The notes beneath the pieces were generated by a model, which ran no database searches, was not told the DNA's origin, and saw only the letters and a list, made by a program, of their open reading frames with translations. DNA of 64,000 nt, taken from sequence record PP400785, one strand, 5' to 3'. Below are positions 6,320 through 59,309 of this stretch, piece by piece; position 1 is the first letter of the stretch; the number at the start of each line of letters is the position of its first letter. Position numbers and translations under genes: made by a program. The stretch is from Escherichia phage FL08.

Positions 6320-6922
6320 TTATAGATTAAATCCTTCAAAATCAAGAGTATAGATAGCGTATGTTGAATACTTTTTGTACTCATATCTATCTGCAATTCT
6401 AAATACACTTCCAGCTGGTATCATTACTTCTTGTTCATCTGAAACTAATTCCATATTACGATAACGATGGCTATCCGGAAACTTAAAGTTTGGATTGTAT
6501 TCTTTACAGCGTAGAGCTTTTATAGCATACTCCTGGAAATTGAATACCATAGGAGCTTTGAATTCAAAAATAACTTGTGTGTTATACTCTAAACTGGAAG
6601 CAAAATGCAGAGCTATATTTTTATCATATGAAGCTGATACTACTTTATCAAATGTAATAACATCAATTCCTTGATTTAATATTTGTTTAGTCTCAACTGG
6701 AACACCTCTCCAAAGAGGTTTATCGTTTGGTTCCAAACGAGATTTGATTATTTCATTTAACCAAGTATGGTCATCTGGTTTGTTGGTAATACAATGAATT
6801 AAAAGTTCAATTTCAGATAAATTAAACCCTTCAGAAAGTAATTCTTCACGAATAGAAGCACGCACCGATGCATCCATTGATTTTATTTTAAAATCTTTTA
6901 GTTGCATTACTGAGTATTTCAT
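6320..6922 (-). CDS. modA: ADP-ribosyltransferase, ModA-like
   Basis: 200 aa (T4 ModA size); Arg (WRGVP), STS-like (SASYD) and catalytic EQE (EQEVMIP) motifs of R-S-E ADP-ribosyltransferases; modA/modB order assigned by size. Confidence 0.65.
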   Translation of the reverse strand: MKYSVMQLKDFKIKSMDASVRASIREELLSEGFNLSEIELLIHCITNKPDDHTWLNEIIKSRLEPNDKPLWRGVPVETKQILNQGIDVITFDKVVSASYDKNIALHFASSLEYNTQVIFEFKAPMVFNFQEYAIKALRCKEYNPNFKFPDSHRYRNMELVSDEQEVMIPAGSVFRIADRYEYKKYSTYAIYTLDFEGFNL

Positions 6923-7542
6923 TCAACTACCTCAATATCATAAACTTTAAATGTTCCAAATGAATCGTGTAATTTTTCTTTTGAAATAGAAGTTATTTTA
7001 TACTTTCCAATTGGAATCATCCATTCTTGTTCACGCACAATCATCATTAAGTTATCAGTACGCTCTGAATCTAATCCATCAGTATCTTCATACGTGTACT
7101 TAAACTCAGTATTAGGAGAAGAAAGTATAATATCGCTGATATGGTCAGAATAATTAAAAGCTTTATTAGTTTTTAAGCGAAGTATTATTTTAGTAAAATA
7201 TTCAGCGTAAGAAAAAGAACATGCTGTGAGCAAACTAGTAGTAAATGAATCTACCCTGTTCGTTGAAAACACTTCTCCAACTTGTAAATCTTTAATAAGT
7301 TCTTTTGTTGATTTTGATATACCACGATATAACTGATAAGGCGATTTAGTTAAATGCTTTTTAATGATTTTATTCAACTGCCTATGAAGAGCTTCATTCT
7401 TTTTAGCTTCCATACATTGCCAAAGAATTGACTGCTCAAAGTCAGTAAATTTTTCACAGACTTTTTTATACATATCATATTGAAAATCAACGCTTTCAGC
7501 TTTTATAGATAACTGTTCAACATCTGCAAGATTAATAATCAT
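6919..7542 (-). CDS. modB: ADP-ribosyltransferase, ModB-like
   Basis: 207 aa (T4 ModB size); YRG ... STN ... EQEWMIP motifs; paralog of adjacent ORF. Confidence 0.65.
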   Translation of the reverse strand: MIINLADVEQLSIKAESVDFQYDMYKKVCEKFTDFEQSILWQCMEAKKNEALHRQLNKIIKKHLTKSPYQLYRGISKSTKELIKDLQVGEVFSTNRVDSFTTSLLTACSFSYAEYFTKIILRLKTNKAFNYSDHISDIILSSPNTEFKYTYEDTDGLDSERTDNLMMIVREQEWMIPIGKYKITSISKEKLHDSFGTFKVYDIEVVE

Positions 7543-12707: not shown

Positions 12708-13064
12708 TTAACCTCTATTCATAAAAGCATTAAAAATTTGGTCATCAATAGATGGTGCAGTAATATTTTCTGCATCATTTAGCAAATCATTAATTTCATC
12801 AGATAGCATAACACATGTACCTTTATTTCCTGTAATTGTTACTGCGCAATTACGAACGTTTTCTTTATTAAATTTTAGGTTAATATTTTCGTAATGAAAA
12901 TCCTTTAATGCTGAATATATTTTTAAAATAAAATTATCTTTTACTACAATAAACCCAACCTCACTATTAAAACGTGGTTCATGGAAACTGTAATAAACCT
13001 TTTCATCTATAAAATCGTATGAAATTTTTTCCATTTTTAAATATGAAAATTCAGAACTATACAT
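12708..13064 (-). CDS. hypothetical protein (118 aa)
   Basis: ORF in 61-41 interval. Confidence 0.45.
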   Translation of the reverse strand: MYSSEFSYLKMEKISYDFIDEKVYYSFHEPRFNSEVGFIVVKDNFILKIYSALKDFHYENINLKFNKENVRNCAVTITGNKGTCVMLSDEINDLLNDAENITAPSIDDQIFNAFMNRG

Positions 13065-13076
13065 ATTAACCTCTAA

Positions 13077-13370
13077 TTACTCACCTACCACTTCAGCGAT
13101 AATATTTTTATTATTAAAGTTTTTATCGCAATACAGAACATAATTATACTGCATTACACCACCAGACTTAAGCTGTTTTTGCACTTCGGCTTTCATTTCA
13201 GGACGATCACGCTCAACGATATTCATAATATCCGCTTCAATTTGAGTTTCAACTTCAGTCTGATCCGCAGTCATAGACCATTCACACAAATCTTTATCAT
13301 ATCCTGCCATAGCAGGCTGAGCAGCACAAGAAGCCAAAGCAAAAATTGTAGCAAAGATAAATTTTTTCAT
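13077..13370 (-). CDS. hypothetical secreted/periplasmic protein (97 aa)
   Basis: N-terminal signal peptide MKKFIFATIFALASCAAQPAMA. Confidence 0.5.
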   Translation of the reverse strand: MKKFIFATIFALASCAAQPAMAGYDKDLCEWSMTADQTEVETQIEADIMNIVERDRPEMKAEVQKQLKSGGVMQYNYVLYCDKNFNNKNIIAEVVGE

Positions 13371-51954: not shown

Positions 51955-52167
51955 TCATTTTTGTCCTGTATTTACTTTATGCCGATGCACGGCCTTAACT
52001 TTATCAAGGTATTTTTCAAAATTTCGCAATCTAGTATAGTCTGCCGGAGATTGGTTGAGTGATACTTCTCGACGCAAAGCTGAAATGATATTTCCAACTT
52101 CCCTACGAATTTCATCTAATTGAAGCACAGTAAGATTGCGAAGTTGCTTTTCAGTTAATTGTAGCAT
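51955..52167 (-). CDS. hypothetical protein (70 aa)
   Basis: ORF between tk and rI. Confidence 0.4.
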
Positions 52168-52209
52168 ATATACCCCTTTAGTTAGATAAACCTATTTATA
52201 ACTTTTGCA

Positions 52210-52791
52210 CTAACCGAGCTTTTTAGTTAATTCATTCCAATGTTTTCTACACAAAGAAACATAAATTTCATCACCAATACAGATTTGATTACCTTCTTTA
52301 ACTGGTGTTCCATCTTCCATTAATCGAGCTGTCATAATCGCTTTTTTTCCGCAATGACAAACTGCCTTTAGTTCAATAAGTTTATCTGCAATCGCTAAAA
52401 GTTCTTTAGAACCTTCAAACAATTTTCCAGCGAAATCAGTCCTTAATCCATAAGCCATAACAGGAACATTATATGTATCAACAATTCGGCTCAATTGATG
52501 CACTTGTTCAGTTTTTAAAAACTGAGCTTCATCTACAAATACACAATGAATATCTTTTTGTGCTTCAGCCCATTTATAGAACTCGAAAATATCCATATCA
52601 TCTGTGATAATATTCGCTTCCTGTTTAATTCCAATGCGAGAAACGACTTCACAGACAGAGTCGCGAGTATCAATAGCAGGCTTAAGAACTAATACACTCA
52701 TTCCGCGTTCTTTATAATTATGTGCAGCAGTCAAAAGAGAAGCAGATTTTCCAGCATTCATTGCTGCATAAGTAAAAATTAAACTCGCCAT
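52210..52791 (-). CDS. tk: thymidine kinase
   Basis: 193 aa (T4 Tk size); P-loop AAMNAGKS; C-terminal Cys4 zinc motif. Confidence 0.9.
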   Translation of the reverse strand: MASLIFTYAAMNAGKSASLLTAAHNYKERGMSVLVLKPAIDTRDSVCEVVSRIGIKQEANIITDDMDIFEFYKWAEAQKDIHCVFVDEAQFLKTEQVHQLSRIVDTYNVPVMAYGLRTDFAGKLFEGSKELLAIADKLIELKAVCHCGKKAIMTARLMEDGTPVKEGNQICIGDEIYVSLCRKHWNELTKKLG

Positions 52792-52792
52792 T

Positions 52793-52981
52793 TTAGTCCT
52801 TAGTTAAATTTTCTAAATATGTTTCTAAATCATTTTCAGCTTTATCGATAGATTTTACTAATTCGTAATATGTTTCGGCATCTCCATAATCAGAAGATAA
52901 TTCAAAAGACAAATCCTTTTCTAAACTAATAATTTCACCAACTAAAAATAATATTTCGTTCTTTTGTTCGCGAGTAATCAT
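52793..52981 (-). CDS. small acidic protein, paralog family member (62 aa)
   Basis: MITREQKNEILFLVGEIISLEKDL pattern. Confidence 0.4.
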   Translation of the reverse strand: MITREQKNEILFLVGEIISLEKDLSFELSSDYGDAETYYELVKSIDKAENDLETYLENLTKD

Positions 52982-53163
52982 AATGAATTTATATAATCAA
53001 TGAGTTCTTGTTCTTTATTATCGAATTCTTTAGAAAGTTCTTCGTATTCATTTGCATTAAAAGGACCGCATTCATCACAAACTTTTTCCAATTCACTGTT
53101 TTTATCCATAACTTCGTGGATAAGAGAAAAGAGTTTGTCTTTTTGTTCTTTGCTTAAACTCAT
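52978..53163 (-). CDS. small acidic protein, paralog family member (61 aa)
   Basis: MSLSKEQKDKLFSLIHEVMDKNSELE pattern. Confidence 0.4.
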   Translation of the reverse strand: MSLSKEQKDKLFSLIHEVMDKNSELEKVCDECGPFNANEYEELSKEFDNKEQELIDYINSL

Positions 53164-53329
53164 ATATTAATTTCCAAAAGTTTTAAAATAATTCGCTTTT
53201 GCTTAAATATTTCCACAGTTAAATGATCAGTATCTTTTTGACCAATTCCAATGGCAAAACCTTTATTAACAGCGAGTTCAATTAAATTATCAAGTTCACG
53301 TAACACTTCATATTGTAACTCAGAACTAT

Positions 53330-53542
53330 TCATTTCGGTTTACCTTCTTTAACGAATTCTGGATAAGGATAAAATCCCGAATAAAATCCTTCACCTTTAT
53401 GATTGATGCATCCTTTATTAGAACAATAGCACCAATAATCAAAATCACAAGCCATTTCATCGTTGCATAAAGCAAAAACAACCGGCCATTTACACTTTTC
53501 ACAGTGGGCATTTTTAAGAATACTAGTTTGGCTCATAACCAT
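53330..53542 (-). CDS. small Cys-rich (putative zinc-binding) protein (70 aa)
   Basis: 7 Cys incl. CEKC pair. Confidence 0.4.
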   Translation of the reverse strand: MVMSQTSILKNAHCEKCKWPVVFALCNDEMACDFDYWCYCSNKGCINHKGEGFYSGFYPYPEFVKEGKPK

Positions 53543-53760
53543 GTCACCTTTAAGCAGTATTCTTCTACATGCTGTTTACGACCTTTCTTATCAATAAAGG
53601 TATATTCAACGAATGTTCCAATGTAGTCTTTATCTACATCATGTGGACTATTAATTGGACATTTAGTACGGCAAATGCGTTCCCATTGACGAATAATTAC
53701 TGCCTTATTCTTTGGGTCATATGGATGTGGATAATGTATATTCATAATAACGGTTCCCAA
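53533..53760 (-). CDS. hypothetical protein (75 aa)
   Basis: ORF in operon. Confidence 0.4.
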   Translation of the reverse strand: MGTVIMNIHYPHPYDPKNKAVIIRQWERICRTKCPINSPHDVDKDYIGTFVEYTFIDKKGRKQHVEEYCLKVTWL

Positions 53761-54209
53761 TCAACAATCACAATTTCTAATTTAGAGGAATATGTATCTA
53801 AAATATCTTCAATAATATCCCAGTTCCCTTTACCTATGCCTGCACCAATCCTAGGCATATAGATTGTAGGTTTAATCAGTTTATTTTTACCAAACTCATT
53901 TAATTTTAACATACAATTCATTAAAGCGGAATACTCAAAATTTGGCCCTGGTTGAAATTGAGTATAAAGATTAAAGCAGTAAGCTTTATGAGTCCTAAAG
54001 TATTTTTCATAAACTGAGTAAGAACCAAGTTTAGTTACATCACCCCATTCAGTCTGTAATTTATCAGCTTCCAAAATTTTAGGGAAAGCTTTGGTTAATT
54101 GACCCGCTACGCCTGAACCCATAGTATGAAAACAATTGCATCCATGCGCAATATTTTTACCTTCAGCGAAAAGGGCGACAATATCGCCCTTGATATATTT
54201 TACAATCAT
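53742..54209 (-). CDS. macro domain protein (ADP-ribose binding/processing)
   Basis: 155 aa; macro-domain signatures GDIVALFAEGKNIAHGCNCFHTMGSGVAGQL and PRIGAGIGKGNW. Confidence 0.6.
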   Translation of the reverse strand: MIVKYIKGDIVALFAEGKNIAHGCNCFHTMGSGVAGQLTKAFPKILEADKLQTEWGDVTKLGSYSVYEKYFRTHKAYCFNLYTQFQPGPNFEYSALMNCMLKLNEFGKNKLIKPTIYMPRIGAGIGKGNWDIIEDILDTYSSKLEIVIVDWEPLL

Positions 54210-54553
54210 CTAGTACTCAATCCTCGATTATAAGAATCTACCAAACGGTCAACCATTGAATGACAAGCGGCTTTATCTTTCTCCTCCGCAACTGAACATT
54301 CTAAGGTATTCCACTTTTTAGCATATCGTTTTAATAATGTATCATTTTTGTATCTGCTTGATTTATCTCTTTCTCCGTCTTTATATGCATATATTAATTT
54401 CTGTGCAAATTCAGCTTGGCATGCTTTATTTTTCCCACAATAATCTGCCGCAGTGCGGTTTACATATTCTCTAATTTCAGTATATGATGTATCTGCTGAC
54501 GCAGAAGCAGAAAATGAAATTAATCCTATACATAAAACCAAAATTTTAGTCAT
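54206..54553 (-). CDS. secreted/periplasmic protein (115 aa; vs position)
   Basis: Signal peptide MTKILVLCIGLISFSASASA; size equals T4 Vs but identity not verified. Confidence 0.4.
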   Translation of the reverse strand: MTKILVLCIGLISFSASASADTSYTEIREYVNRTAADYCGKNKACQAEFAQKLIYAYKDGERDKSSRYKNDTLLKRYAKKWNTLECSVAEEKDKAACHSMVDRLVDSYNRGLSTR

Positions 54554-55091
54554 TTACTATTTCCAAAAGTTTATTATTTTTAAGGTAATTAGCCTTTTCT
54601 AGGACTTCAGAAGCATATTTAGAACCAGCTTTAACATTCCATCCCGAATTATAAGAGGATATTGCTTTTCTTATATCGCCCTTATGTATATTTAACCAAT
54701 AAGAAAGTTCAATGTACGCCCAGGAAGCTGAATTGGATCGTTTATTCAACATTCTTTTTATTTCAGCATCGGTCATATTATAACCAAGTTCCTTAACTCT
54801 TGCTCGCATAGTAGGCAAATAATTTTGGAACATTCCGTAGGCGTGATGCTTTGGTTTAGATTTTAAATTAACTCCGCCAGAGCTTTCTTGCCATAAAATG
54901 GCTGCCATTATATGACCTAATCCACTCTTGTGGATATTTTTGTGTGTTTTATATTTTCCATCCTTAGAAAATTGTTCCCCGAATTGATATGCATAACGCA
55001 TGTTATCGAGTTGGACATTACTGAAAGTATGCTCGGAGCTATGTGCCATCATTGAAATGGCCAATAGACCAGCGAGTAGTGCTTTTCTCAT
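54546..55091 (-). CDS. secreted lytic transglycosylase-like protein (SLT domain)
   Basis: Signal peptide; ILWQESSGG catalytic-glutamate motif typical of lytic transglycosylases. Confidence 0.55.
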   Translation of the reverse strand: MRKALLAGLLAISMMAHSSEHTFSNVQLDNMRYAYQFGEQFSKDGKYKTHKNIHKSGLGHIMAAILWQESSGGVNLKSKPKHHAYGMFQNYLPTMRARVKELGYNMTDAEIKRMLNKRSNSASWAYIELSYWLNIHKGDIRKAISSYNSGWNVKAGSKYASEVLEKANYLKNNKLLEIVND

Positions 55092-55098
55092 GCTTACC

Positions 55099-55560
55099 TC
55101 ATTGAGTTTTAATTACTGCTTTAGAAGCCTTTCCTGGTAAACGACGACTGTTGATAATTGCCATCCTACATTGAAGTGACGGGTCTTTGAACTTCTCGTT
55201 AGGTTTACAAACTGTAAATCCAAGCCAAAGATTTCCATCTGTGATTTCTAAACGTCCAGGACGATATTCAACCCCATCAATAAAATCTTCGTCAATGTCA
55301 GGACGCGGAGGCATACTCAGGAATTCATTAACTTCTAAAACATGGTCTTTTATTTTATGGAATAATTCAAAAACGTATGTCTCATCAATCTCCCGTTGAA
55401 TTGCGCGATCAAGAAGATGTTGAGAATATTTTAGATGAAACGATGAGACCCCTGCTGCTTTTGATGCCTCACGAATCTCATTGTTAATTTGACGAAACTC
55501 CGACTCAAAGTGACGACGAAGCTTATTTCGACGGATAAAAACTTCTGTATTGATAGTCAT
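55099..55560 (-). CDS. regB: endoribonuclease RegB
   Basis: 153 aa (T4 RegB size); sequence recognisable. Confidence 0.85.
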   Translation of the reverse strand: MTINTEVFIRRNKLRRHFESEFRQINNEIREASKAAGVSSFHLKYSQHLLDRAIQREIDETYVFELFHKIKDHVLEVNEFLSMPPRPDIDEDFIDGVEYRPGRLEITDGNLWLGFTVCKPNEKFKDPSLQCRMAIINSRRLPGKASKAVIKTQ

Positions 55561-55691
55561 GTTGTTCTCCTCTTAACTGATAGAAAAATTATACCACAGT
55601 CAAGAGGAAAAGTAAACAGTTATTCTTTAAATCTAATCAATTTATTCATAGACTTTGAAACTTCTGCACGAACCTCATGTAGATTTTTGAG

Positions 55692-55940
55692 CTATTCAAG
55701 ACGCTGCGTATAGTAAGCAATTTCATCTTCTTCGAGACAGTCCTGCGAATCTTCTTTAAGATAACGTGCATAGTCCTGGAAAGCGTTACGGATTACTTCC
55801 TGGAAATCATCAAGACTTTGAATTTTCTTAGGAGCAGCAGATACACGACGAGGGGCAGTATAATACTCATAACCAAACCCTGCGCTTAATTGAGCCATTA
55901 GTATTTTTCCTCTGGTTGGAACACTGCACGACAAGCCCAC
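55692..55940 (-). CDS. hypothetical protein (82 aa)
   Basis: ORF in operon. Confidence 0.4.
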
Positions 55941-56200
55941 ATACTGGCTTCTTTGAGTTTCGTTTTAGCAATAGTTAACTGATCGAGGCTTTCGGCATAA
56001 TTCTTCGCGAATTCACAATCTTCACAATTATCTAGTGCTTCCCAGAATTCATCATACAAAGCATCAAAGATAAGTCCTAAACGAACTTCAGCGTCTTTGA
56101 TAGCATTCACTTTACCGATTTTCTCTTCAGTATGTGGTTTATAACCCTTAATATCTTCAATCATATTTGACTTCCTCACCAGTACATAAATCATATTCAA
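55898..56200 (-). CDS. hypothetical protein (100 aa)
   Basis: ORF in operon. Confidence 0.4.
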
Positions 56201-56378
56201 CTAAACGAATAGGTTCATGAATGCCATATCCCTGAACAGAAATTTCTGTCGTAGGATAAATTCCATCAATATCACCCATATTCCAGGCTTCATTAAATTG
56301 CTGTTCGCCTGAATTACTAAACCACTCGGCGAAAGCATTTAGCACATCTTTAGAACCTTCAATAATTATCTTTGCCAT
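56157..56378 (-). CDS. hypothetical protein (73 aa)
   Basis: ORF in operon. Confidence 0.4.
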   Translation of the reverse strand: MAKIIIEGSKDVLNAFAEWFSNSGEQQFNEAWNMGDIDGIYPTTEISVQGYGIHEPIRLVEYDLCTGEEVKYD

Positions 56379-56740
56379 TACAAACTCTCGGTGAAGGTAC
56401 GAGCGATAACGTCGCGCTGCTGTTCCGGAGTCAGAGAGTTAAAGCGAACTGCATAACCGGATACACGGATGGTCAGCTGCGGATATTTTTCCGGATGCTT
56501 AACTGCATCTTCCAGAGTTTCACGACGCAGAACGTTAACGTTCAGGTGTTGACCACCTTCAATTTTAACTGTAGGTTGTTGCTCAATTTCAATTTCACGG
56601 GCATGCAAACCGTAGAAAATTTCTGGGTCTACAAAAGAGTCCTCTTTAAAGGTTTTAGAGACAATAATTCGTGCTTGAATACCATCTTCAAAATAAATAG
56701 TACCTTTATGTGTGCCTTCAAGAATTTGATATGCTTTCAT
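56378..56740 (-). CDS. autonomous glycyl radical cofactor (GrcA/YfiD-like)
   Basis: 120 aa; glycyl radical signature RVSGYAVRF near C-terminus; PFL C-terminal domain-like. Confidence 0.7.
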
Positions 56741-56747
56741 ATAAACC

Positions 56748-57077
56748 TCAATTAGAAAATAAATTTATCCAAGATTGTTCTTTAATTAAAAATGGCTCAG
56801 AATCATATGCCATTAAACTTTGCGTAATTAATCCTTTAAAAGGTCCATCAATAAATTCCATGGTAAAATATGGAATTTTATTCATTAGCCGTGCATTAGG
56901 AGCAGTGCACAAAACTCTGCATCCTTTGAATACGCCTTTTTGTAATTTGTATTGCTTAGGATAAAATTCGCTTAAAATGTTATTTTTTGCTAAAATTTCA
57001 AAATGATTCACCAATTTATTTTTAATAGTTTTTGGCGAAAAATAAAGATATTCGAAAAGCTGAGTGTCTGTCATCAT
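56748..57077 (-). CDS. hypothetical protein (about 110 aa)
   Basis: start trimmed to ATG overlapping upstream stop. Confidence 0.4.
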
Positions 57078-57613
57078 TGCATTCCAATTACGAAAAACTG
57101 TGGACGAGTAATACCACCAATACAACATTTAATATTACAGCAGCAGTGTACAGTGTCAATATGGACACTATAAATCTTATCCATATCAGGAGATTTGACA
57201 GGCTCATCAATTATATACAAAATTCGCGAAAGCGATAAACCTCTGAACTTACTTCCTTTATTACCAATAAAACTGCGTACAGAATCAGTAAATAAACGAA
57301 AACGTATATCATCATTAGAATAACGCGAAAATTCCTTTTTGATGTTATTTGCAGAAATTTTAGCATAAGCTGAAGTATTAGAAAGAACAATAACTGTTCC
57401 GCCATCATACAACCAATTAGCAGCGAAGTTAGTCACAGCAATTGATTTACCGGATTGACGTCCACCATCTAGTCGAAGTGTGCAATACTGTTTAAGTAAG
57501 TCTTCAAATGGCGGGATATATTCGTTTTTACAAATTTCTTCTACTCTAGCATCAGAATGGTGTGTAAAAGCATTCATCAGGGATAGATAAGGACCAGTTA
57601 AAAATGTTCTCAT
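57074..57613 (-). CDS. P-loop-containing protein with Cys-cluster C-terminus
   Basis: GRQSGKS Walker A-like motif; C-terminal HCCCNIKCC; start trimmed to MRTFLTG. Confidence 0.45.
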   Translation of the reverse strand: MRTFLTGPYLSLMNAFTHHSDARVEEICKNEYIPPFEDLLKQYCTLRLDGGRQSGKSIAVTNFAANWLYDGGTVIVLSNTSAYAKISANNIKKEFSRYSNDDIRFRLFTDSVRSFIGNKGSKFRGLSLSRILYIIDEPVKSPDMDKIYSVHIDTVHCCCNIKCCIGGITRPQFFVIGMQ

Positions 57614-58853: not shown

Positions 58854-59309
58854 TTAAAAGAGGGTGTTCATTATTCGGTAAAGTGAAGGACCCATCACAT
58901 ATTGCCACTGAGTACGAGGAATAAGAGCAAAAGCGTCCATTTCTGGAATCATAACGCCATCTTTATTTTCAAAATAAGACTCGCAGCGGCAATTTCTAAA
59001 CATCTCATGCTCTACTGGAATCGTATAATAAAATAACTGTAGGTCTTTATTACTAGAATATTTAAATACACCTAGGTCTTCTAGAAGGTCTGGATTATAA
59101 TTGCTAAAACCGGTCTCTTCTAAACATTCTCTTCGTGCTGCATCTAATGCGCTTAAATCCGAATTTTCTACACGGCCCTTTGGAATATCCCAACGATGTG
59201 CCATCATTCCAGGCTTACGAGAACCAGTAACCCGACCCATAAATAAATCTTTATCTTCTGTCATAAAGATAATACCAGCTGATAATGTTTTCATTTTAAT
59301 TTCCTGCAT
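58854..59309 (-). CDS. nudE: Nudix hydrolase NudE
   Basis: 151 aa; Nudix box GRVENSDLSALDAARRECLEETGF. Confidence 0.8.
   Translation of the reverse strand: MQEIKMKTLSAGIIFMTEDKDLFMGRVTGSRKPGMMAHRWDIPKGRVENSDLSALDAARRECLEETGFSNYNPDLLEDLGVFKYSSNKDLQLFYYTIPVEHEMFRNCRCESYFENKDGVMIPEMDAFALIPRTQWQYVMGPSLYRIMNTLF

What the first reader, a model, noticed from the sequence alone, without database searches (positions are those of the whole stretch)
53742..54209. Macro-domain protein in a genome that also encodes two Mod ADP-ribosyltransferases and a Nudix hydrolase
The 155-aa ORF has the hallmark macro-domain motifs (GDIVALFAEGKNIAHGCNC...GSGVAGQL and PRIGAGIGKGNW). The same window encodes ModA/ModB-like ADP-ribosyltransferases (6320..7542) and NudE (58854..59309). 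A phage macro domain could reverse or read ADP-ribosylation, process ADP-ribose-derived signals, or counter host NAD-based defences.
Basis: partly seen in the sequence, partly recalled or inferred. Interest (0 to 1): 0.55.

Follow-up and report, generated by a model that had tools for sequence, protein, structure and literature searches.

The report
T-even phage tk.4/adfM macrodomain gene
This is the well-known T-even phage gene tk.4, a macrodomain protein recently named AdfM because deleting it in T4 makes the phage sensitive to DarTG2, a bacterial defence that ADP-ribosylates DNA; it is a real feature, but its function is already assigned.

Summary

The window comes from a T2/RB14-like Tequatrovirus. 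The ORF is gene tk.4, 152/155 identical to T4 Tk.4, in the conserved vs-tk.4-tk.3 order with ATGA overlaps at both ends.

A 2025 preprint (HIDEN-SEQ) found tk.4 to be the only T4 gene needed on hosts carrying DarTG2. A clean knockout was sensitised, and the gene was renamed adfM. So the function is already known.

The implied link to ModA/ModB and NudE is not supported.

One nuance comes from this work. Tk.4 is not DarG-like at its active site. An invariant Gln84 sits where DarG and TARG1 have their catalytic lysine, and Asn25 and Gly124 are also conserved. This is the arrangement in Streptomyces SCO6735, which cleaves thymidine-linked ADP-ribose from DNA without a lysine. The PhiKZ protein also called AdfM is a separate, truly DarG-like lineage.

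No enzymatic assay of Tk.4 was found in the held library.

The parts
53742..54209 (-). tk.4 / adfM coding sequence: 155-aa single-domain macrodomain protein of the ALC1-like class
54132..54146 (-). Codons for H22-G23-C24-N25-C26. Asn25 is the conserved macrodomain asparagine, equivalent to SCO6735 Asn27 and to the asparagine of the VN motif in DarG; TARG1 has Ser here.
   Evidence: Codons read. N25 is present in 120 of 121 homologues, H22 in 116 of 121, G23 in 120 of 121. SCO6735 N27S is almost inactive (PMC9411070).
53958..53972 (-). Codons for N80-L81-Y82-T83-Q84. Gln84 occupies the position of the catalytic lysine of DarG (K80) and TARG1 (K84), and of Gln85 in SCO6735.
   Evidence: Q84 is present in 121 of 121 homologues, Y82 in 121 of 121, N80 in 120 of 121. 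The alignments 'NlYTq' to 'YLITK' (TARG1), 'NFPTK' (DarG) and 'NMIGQ' (BT1257, SCO6735) are. SCO6735 Q85A is dead on thymidine-ADPr DNA (PMC9411070).
53820..53855 (-). Codons for P119-RIGAGIGKGN-W130, the glycine-rich diphosphate-binding loop. Gly124 is equivalent to SCO6735 Gly128. Gly126 sits where TARG1 has catalytic Asp125.
   Evidence: Codons read. P119, I121, G122 and G124 are present in 120 of 121 homologues. Alignments.
54206..54209 (-). ATGA overlap: the stop codon of vs overlaps the start codon of tk.4, suggesting translational coupling and one transcription unit
   Evidence: ORF coordinates. The same arrangement is in T4 (vs 61386.., tk.4 ..61389).
53742..53745 (-). ATGA overlap: the tk.4 stop overlaps the ATG of tk.3 (53536..53745, 100% identical to T4 Tk.3)
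   Evidence: 'tcat' at 53742-53745. (tk.3 mapped at 53745..53536). T4 annotation.

Best explanation
The ORF is tk.4 (adfM) of a T2/RB14-like Tequatrovirus. It is an early-region, single-domain macrodomain enzyme that protects the phage from the host DarTG2 toxin-antitoxin defence. DarT2 ADP-ribosylates thymidines in TNTC motifs of single-stranded phage DNA and blocks replication. Tk.4 most likely binds the ADP-ribose moiety in its macrodomain cleft and hydrolyses the thymine-N3-ribose bond, releasing free ADP-ribose and restoring the DNA.

The active site is not the lysine type of DarG and TARG1. It is the glutamine type described for Streptomyces SCO6735. There, Gln (here Gln84), held by Asn (here Asn25), positions the distal ribose, and a backbone-held water starts the reaction.

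What is shown: the fold, the orthology with T4 Tk.4, the conserved residues, and (in T4, from a preprint) the DarTG2-specific knockout phenotype. What is inferred: that the protein is catalytically active on thymidine-ADPr DNA, and that it uses the SCO6735-type mechanism.
For: Orthology: 98.5% DNA identity to T2/RB14 over 4 kb; 152/155 aa identical to T4 Tk.4, with K102E, K108E and D135G all outside the conserved columns; the vs and tk.3 neighbours are 100% identical to T4.

Genetics in T4: tk.4 is the single significant HIDEN-SEQ hit on a DarTG2 host, and a clean knockout is sensitised (10.1101/2025.11.20.689424). T4 lacking adfA and adfN remains DarTG2-resistant, so another factor was expected (PMC11825919).

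Active site: Gln84, Asn25, Gly122 and Gly124 are invariant or nearly so in 121 homologues. They align with SCO6735 Gln85, Asn27, Gly126 and Gly128. In SCO6735, Q85A abolishes and N27S nearly abolishes thymidine-ADPr DNA hydrolysis.

Precedent: another phage macrodomain, PhiKZ gp104, removes DarT2 marks from DNA in vitro (PMC13309987).
Against: No biochemical assay of Tk.4 was found in the held library. The preprint itself says only that enzymatic removal 'seems likely'. The genetic evidence is for T4, not this phage; it comes from a preprint, and I saw no complementation or catalytic-mutant control in the passages I read.

Tk.4 lacks the catalytic lysine that DarG and TARG1 need. SCO6735's 'specific' Val25 is Gly23 here, and the DNA-binding mobile loop carrying Lys89 is 5 residues shorter. 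Transfer of the SCO6735 mechanism is therefore by analogy. That mechanism itself rests largely on MD simulation.

Sequence scores do not place Tk.4 clearly inside the SCO6735/BT1257 branch: BT1257 69 bits, TARG1 58, SCO6735 56.5, Poa1p 55, Mtb DarG 49.5.
Confidence: 0.8

Rival explanations
1. Tk.4 neutralises DarT2 mainly by binding and inhibiting the toxin stoichiometrically, with hydrolysis secondary or absent.
For: Catalytically dead SCO6735 Q85A, DarG K80A and TARG1 K84A all inhibit DarT in vitro, and SCO6735 does so most strongly (PMC9411070). Other phage anti-DarT factors (AdfA, AdfB) are direct inhibitors (PMC13309987 introduction). Tk.4 lacks the catalytic lysine.
Against: Near-invariance of the ADP-ribose-pocket residues N25, Q84, G122 and G124 across 121 homologues from phages of many host genera fits a conserved substrate chemistry better than recognition of one variable toxin surface. 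Tk.4 has no counterpart of the DarT-binding C-terminal domain of DarG: it is 155 aa, and it scores 31.6 bits against the 250-bit cut-off of the DarG model.
Confidence: 0.12
2. Tk.4 is the eraser for the phage's own ADP-ribosylation by Alt, ModA and ModB (or for ModB RNAylation), tuning the modification of host RNA polymerase and the translation apparatus. This is the association the first reader emphasised.
For: ModA- and ModB-like ARTs are in the same window. SCO6735 and TARG1 can remove some protein-linked ADP-ribose (glutamate-linked).
Against: The T4 ARTs are arginine-specific CTX-type enzymes, and the known Arg-ADPr erasers are DraG/ARH-type, not macrodomains (PMC8120803 tables). The genes are 46 kb apart with no shared operon. 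tk.4 was recovered only as conditionally needed in the presence of DarTG2, so no requirement was seen without that defence.
Confidence: 0.04
3. Tk.4 processes small ADP-ribose derivatives: ADP-ribose-1''-phosphate (the RefSeq 'phosphatase/A1pp' annotation, Poa1p-like), O-acetyl-ADP-ribose, or ADP-ribose-derived immune signals. The DarTG2 phenotype would then be indirect.
Against: The annotation comes from a motif, not from an assay. A specific, single-hit DarTG2 phenotype is hard to explain through a small-molecule activity, because DarT2 acts directly on DNA. Side activities are not excluded.
Confidence: 0.05
4. Tk.4 reverses ADP-ribosylation of RNA, for example by mRNA-targeting defence ARTs such as CmdT.
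For: RNA ADP-ribosylating defences against T-even phages exist (PMC11618068). The authors of PMC11825919 speculate that some anti-DarT factors may also detoxify other nucleic-acid modifications.
Against: CmdTAC defends robustly against T-even phages, and RNA from T4-infected cmdTAC cells carries a strong ADP-ribose signal, although T4 has tk.4 (abstract). So Tk.4 does not cancel that modification. There is no direct evidence for RNA substrates.
Confidence: 0.04

Closest known systems
T4 Tk.4 = AdfM (anti-DarT factor Macrodomain), NP_049723; bioRxiv 10.1101/2025.11.20.689424
   Same: 152/155 aa identical, same length, same position between vs and tk.3 with the same overlapping start and stop codons. 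It is the same gene in a sister phage.
   Different: Three substitutions (K102E, K108E, D135G) lie outside the conserved columns. The window has two extra small ORFs between tk.2 and tk.3 that T4 lacks.
Streptomyces coelicolor SCO6735 (PDB 5E3B) and Bacteroides BT1257 (2AFC/2FG1): glutamine-type ALC1-like macrodomains
   Different: Only 20-29% identity. Val25 is Gly23 in Tk.4. The mobile loop with Lys89 is 5-6 residues shorter. Tk.4 has its own invariant residues (C24, C26, D49, Y82, T83, W130). It is phage-borne, not chromosomal or DNA-damage-induced.
DarG antitoxin macrodomain (Mtb 5M3I, T. aquaticus 5M31/5M3E; NCBIfam NF048014)
   Different: The catalytic Lys80 is replaced by Gln84. There is no C-terminal DarT-binding domain (155 aa against about 340). 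There is no adjacent darT. It scores 31.6 bits against the 250-bit cut-off.
PhiKZ gp104 'AdfM' (Cell Rep 2026, PMC13309987)
   Same: A phage-encoded single-domain macrodomain that counters DarTG2. It carries the same name.
   Different: gp104 is a true DarG-type protein: E 9e-25 to Mtb DarG, with an FPTK lysine motif. It matches Tk.4 only over 23 residues (BLASTP E 0.004) and scores 31 bits against the Tk.4 family profile. These look like two independent recruitments. gp104 has in vitro activity data; Tk.4 has none that I found.
Human TARG1/OARD1 (4J5S) and yeast Poa1p (6LFQ)
   Different: The TARG1 catalytic dyad K84/D125 corresponds to Q84/G126 in Tk.4. Poa1p is an Appr1p phosphatase with a longer chain and no Gln at the aligned position.

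Membership tests
Macro domain (Pfam PF01661) | Score above Pfam's gathering threshold | tested here: met
   28.4 bits against a cut-off of 22, covering profile positions 2-117 of 118.
Macro domain (Pfam PF01661) | Three-layer alpha/beta/alpha macro fold | tested here: met
ALC1-like macrodomain class (TARG1, DarG, Poa1p, SCO6735, BT1257) | Closest structural and sequence neighbours are members of this class rather than MacroD, PARG or macroH2A types | tested here: met
T-even Tk.4 / AdfM | Orthology with T4 tk.4: high identity and conserved gene order vs-tk.4-tk.3 | tested here: met
   98% identity. The neighbours vs and tk.3 are 100% identical to T4. The annotation of T2 and RB14 at the matching place is 'tk.4'.
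T-even Tk.4 / AdfM | Loss sensitises the phage to DarTG2 | not testable with these tools
   Reported for T4 in a preprint. Not tested for this phage.
DarG antitoxin (NCBIfam NF048014 equivalog) | Score above the curated cut-off; two-domain architecture with a C-terminal DarT-binding domain | tested here: not met
   31.6 bits against 250. Only profile positions 2-147 of 338 are matched, and the protein is 155 aa.
DarG antitoxin (NCBIfam NF048014 equivalog) | Catalytic lysine in the 'TK' motif (K80) | tested here: not met
   Gln84 aligns with this lysine and is invariant in 121 of 121 homologues.
DarG antitoxin (NCBIfam NF048014 equivalog) | Encoded next to a darT toxin gene | tested here: not met
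   The neighbours are vs, vs.1 and regB upstream and tk.3, tk.2, tk.1 and tk downstream.
TARG1/OARD1 | Catalytic Lys84-Asp125 dyad | tested here: not met
   K84 aligns with Q84 and D125 with G126 (family consensus Ala).
SCO6735/BT1257-type (glutamine-type) macrodomain hydrolases | Gln at the lysine position, stabilising Asn, and the Gly of the diphosphate loop (Q85, N27, G128) | tested here: met
   Q84, N25 and G124 align with them and are invariant or nearly so.
SCO6735/BT1257-type (glutamine-type) macrodomain hydrolases | Val/Ile25 and the extended mobile loop with Lys89, features called SCO6735-specific in PMC9411070 | tested here: not met
   Gly23 is at the Val25 position. The loop between Gln and the following helix is 5-6 residues shorter, with no aligned lysine.
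SCO6735/BT1257-type (glutamine-type) macrodomain hydrolases | Hydrolysis of thymidine-linked ADP-ribose on ssDNA | not testable with these tools
   Needs an enzyme assay. None for Tk.4 was found in the library.
Poa1p-type ADP-ribose-1''-phosphate phosphatase (basis of the RefSeq 'phosphatase' label) | Appr1p phosphatase activity; active-site His23 and Ser30 | tested here: inconclusive
   His22 aligns with Poa1p His23, and Thr29 with Ser30. His22 is also conserved in TARG1, SCO6735 and BT1257, so it does not discriminate. Activity was not tested.

The most novel reading that the evidence does not exclude
T-even AdfM (Tk.4) is a lysine-less, glutamine-type DNA ADP-ribosylglycohydrolase. Phages recruited it independently of the DarG-derived AdfM of PhiKZ-like jumbo phages. 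On this reading phages have evolved anti-DarT2 erasers at least twice from different macrodomain branches. The large Tk.4 family, with matches in about 2,800 phage records across Escherichia, Klebsiella, Salmonella, Pseudomonas, Vibrio, Acinetobacter and Aeromonas phages, would be a natural test bed for the still unproven lysine-independent mechanism of thymidine de-ADP-ribosylation. It might also have additional inhibitory or broader substrate activity.
Probability: 0.55. Interest if true: 0.35.

Novelty: already known. Interest (0 to 1): 0.22.

Why it matters
This finding adds nothing new to the gene catalogue. tk.4 has been annotated as an A1pp/macro protein since the T4 genome annotation (as annotated in NC_000866), and a preprint now assigns it the anti-DarTG2 role.

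The modest value lies in the mechanistic nuance. The T-even protein carries the glutamine-type active site of SCO6735, not the lysine-type site of DarG with which the preprint compares it. It is also unrelated at family level to the PhiKZ protein that shares its name.

This matters for three groups: people who annotate phage macrodomains, people who design catalytic-dead controls (Q84A or N25A, not a lysine mutant), and people who study how thymidine-linked ADP-ribose is cleaved.

Tried and rejected
(1) DarG membership. Rejected on the NCBIfam score, the missing C-terminal domain, the missing lysine and the missing darT neighbour.

(2) Equivalence with PhiKZ AdfM. Rejected: only a 23-residue BLASTP match, whereas gp104 matches DarG at E 9e-25.

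(3) Genomic context of homologues labelled as bacterial, in search of a darT neighbour. The 'Bacilli MAG' contig carrying P0071 is a T4-like phage fragment (Rnl1, Dda-like helicase, PNKP, dCMP deaminase). The contigs carrying P0088 have no informative neighbours. So there is no independent guilt-by-association evidence.

(4) Promoter and terminator scan of 52000-57500. The counts are not above the shuffled expectation (27 against 23.1, and 4 against 2.9). No transcription-unit boundary can be claimed from it.

(5) Search of the window for the other anti-DarT genes. T4 gp61.2 (AdfA) gives only a weak partial match. adfN (gene 30.3) was not searched for in the window.

(6) Literature searches for a biochemical assay of Tk.4 found none.

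(7) I could not inspect the 3D positions of Gln84 and Asn25, because model coordinates are not exposed. Residue equivalences rest on profile alignments.

Full report
**Observation.** Window 53742..54209 on the minus strand is an ATG-to-TGA ORF of 155 aa. I checked the codons for HGCNC (54132-54146), NLYTQ (53958-53972) and PRIGAGIGKGNW (53820-53855) directly on the DNA.
- The protein passes Pfam's curated threshold for the Macro domain: 28.4 bits against 22, over nearly the whole model.
- A profile built from 38 homologues hits solved macrodomains at E 4e-18 to 5e-10.
- The AlphaFold2 model is confident, with pLDDT 94.7 and pTM 0.90.
- The two Mod-like ADP-ribosyltransferases (6320..6922 and 6919..7542, minus strand) and the Nudix hydrolase (58854..59309, minus strand) are also real.

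**Identity.** The 4 kb around the ORF is 98.5% identical to phages T2 and RB14, where the gene is annotated tk.4.
- Against T4 itself the protein is 152/155 identical. The differences are K102E, K108E and D135G.
- The neighbours vs, vs.1 and tk.3 are 100% identical to T4.
- The vs stop overlaps the tk.4 start (ATGA at 54206-54209), and the tk.4 stop overlaps the tk.3 start (ATGA at 53742-53745). T4 has the same arrangement. This indicates one translationally coupled unit on the minus strand.
- RefSeq labels the T4 gene 'phosphatase; contains A1pp phosphatase motif'. That label comes from a motif, not from an assay.

**What is already known.** A bioRxiv preprint of November 2025 (HIDEN-SEQ, 10.1101/2025.11.20.689424) screened a T4 transposon library on a DarTG2-expressing host.
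- tk.4 was the single significant hit, and a clean knockout was sensitised to DarTG2.
- The authors renamed the gene adfM (anti-DarT factor Macrodomain). They noted structural similarity to Mtb DarG and wrote that enzymatic removal of ADP-ribose from DNA 'seems likely'.
- This fits an earlier report that T4 lacking adfA and adfN remains DarTG2-resistant, so a further factor was expected (PMC11825919).
- I found no biochemical assay of Tk.4 in the held library.

The gene and its biological role are therefore already known. The molecular activity is inferred.

**Mechanism: what the sequence adds.** DarG and TARG1, the two classical erasers of thymidine-linked ADP-ribose, depend on a lysine in a 'TK' motif: K80 in DarG and K84 in TARG1 (PMC8120803 and PMC9411070).
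- Profile alignments place Tk.4's 'NLYTQ' on TARG1's 'YLITK' and on DarG's 'NFPTK'. Gln84 therefore sits at the lysine position. TARG1's second catalytic residue, Asp125, corresponds to Gly126.
- In a MAFFT alignment of the query with 120 database homologues, Gln84 is present in 121 of 121 sequences. Asn25, Gly122 and Gly124 are each present in 120 of 121.
- This is the arrangement of Streptomyces SCO6735 and Bacteroides BT1257. SCO6735 Asn27, Gln85 and Gly128 align with Tk.4 Asn25, Gln84 and Gly124.
- SCO6735 has been shown to cleave DarT-made thymidine-ADPr from DNA and to protect against DarT. Q85A is dead and N27S is nearly dead. The proposed mechanism is water-initiated and lysine-independent. 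Catalytically dead SCO6735 also inhibits DarT by interaction (PMC9411070).

The best-supported mechanism for Tk.4 is therefore a glutamine-type DNA ADP-ribosylglycohydrolase acting on DarT2-modified phage ssDNA.

There are caveats. SCO6735's Val25 is Gly23 here, although the proposed role is a backbone one. The lysine-bearing mobile loop is 5-6 residues shorter. Bit scores do not place Tk.4 unambiguously inside the SCO6735/BT1257 branch.

**Membership.**
- Tk.4 is a macrodomain of the ALC1-like class.
- It is not a DarG. It scores 31.6 bits against the 250-bit cut-off of the NCBIfam equivalog, has no C-terminal DarT-binding domain, no lysine and no darT neighbour.
- It is not a TARG1, because it has no Lys/Asp dyad.
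- The PhiKZ gp104 protein, independently named AdfM in Cell Reports 2026, has in vitro de-ADP-ribosylation data (PMC13309987). It is a genuine DarG-type macrodomain: E 9e-25 to Mtb DarG, with an FPTK motif. It matches Tk.4 over only 23 residues.
- The shared name therefore covers what look like two independent recruitments.

**Rivals.**
- Stoichiometric inhibition of DarT2 is possible as a second activity, by analogy with SCO6735. The deep conservation of the ADP-ribose pocket across phages of many hosts argues for catalysis.
These are arginine-specific ARTs whose marks are reversed by DraG/ARH-type enzymes. The genes are 46 kb away, and tk.4 showed a requirement only on DarTG2 hosts.
- NudE could in principle dispose of the released ADP-ribose. 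From my own knowledge, T4 NudE hydrolyses ADP-ribose. This was not tested here and is speculative.
- Small-molecule activities (Appr1p, OAADPr) cannot be excluded as side reactions, but they do not explain a DarTG2-specific phenotype.
- Reversal of CmdT-type RNA ADP-ribosylation is unlikely. CmdTAC defends against T-even phages, and RNA from T4-infected cmdTAC cells is strongly ADP-ribosylated.

**Distribution.** tblastn finds Tk.4-like sequences in 2,780 of 50,697 phage records, from Escherichia, Klebsiella, Salmonella, Pseudomonas, Vibrio, Shigella, Acinetobacter and Aeromonas phages. In Tevenvirinae they often lie next to vs. The contigs I inspected for 'bacterial' homologues were phage-like or uninformative.

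**Verdict.** This is a real, correctly recognised macrodomain gene, but it is tk.4/adfM of a T2-like phage and its function is already assigned. Interest is low. The only added value is the active-site typing (Gln-type, not DarG-type) and the distinction from PhiKZ AdfM.

Noticed in passing
window 53160..53333 (-) and 53330..53542 (-): Two small ORFs lie between tk.2 and tk.3 and have no counterpart at this place in T4, where tk.2 abuts tk.3. One is 57 aa (phrog_3452). The other is 70 aa (phrog_2306) and Cys-rich (CEKC...C...C.C...C), which may be a zinc-binding fold. Both are of unknown function.
   Followed up: partly
window 12708..13064 (-), tblastn match 12711..13118: The homologue of T4 gp61.2 (AdfA, anti-DarT1 factor) is highly divergent. 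It is only 31% identical over 142 aa, and the open ORF is 118 aa against 209 aa in T4, sharing mainly the C-terminal end (...DDQIFNAFMNRG). This may be a different or truncated adfA allele in this phage.
   Followed up: partly
window 54206..54553 (-) (vs): vs is translationally coupled upstream of tk.4. The same HIDEN-SEQ preprint reports vs as the most strongly depleted T4 gene in minimal M9 glucose medium, and the DarTG2 assays were also run in M9 glucose at 30 C. It is worth keeping in mind for polar or medium effects when interpreting tk.4 phenotypes.
   Followed up: no
window 54546..55091 (-) (vs.1): Vs.1 (181 aa, 100% identical to T4) has an N-terminal signal-like hydrophobic stretch and weak matches to lytic tail protein and endolysin families (phrog_2013 E 1e-5, phrog_669 E 5.5e-4). 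This hints at a transglycosylase-like periplasmic protein, although the gene is annotated as hypothetical.
   Followed up: no
window 54171..54191 (+): A terminator-like hairpin (8-bp stem with 5 GC pairs, followed by a T-rich tail) lies on the plus strand, antisense to the 5' end of tk.4. The terminator count in the region is not above the shuffled expectation, so it is probably chance.
   Followed up: no
L003:41-2397 (NCBI GCA_051648945.1 contig JBOFGC010000414.1): A contig labelled 'MAG: Bacilli bacterium' that carries a Tk.4 homologue is evidently a T4-like phage fragment (Rnl1, Dda-like helicase, spanin, PNKP, dCMP deaminase). There the macrodomain gene lies two genes downstream of the RNA ligase 1 gene and a DUF4326 gene, a different neighbourhood from the vs-tk.4-tk.3 order of Tequatrovirus.
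   Followed up: no
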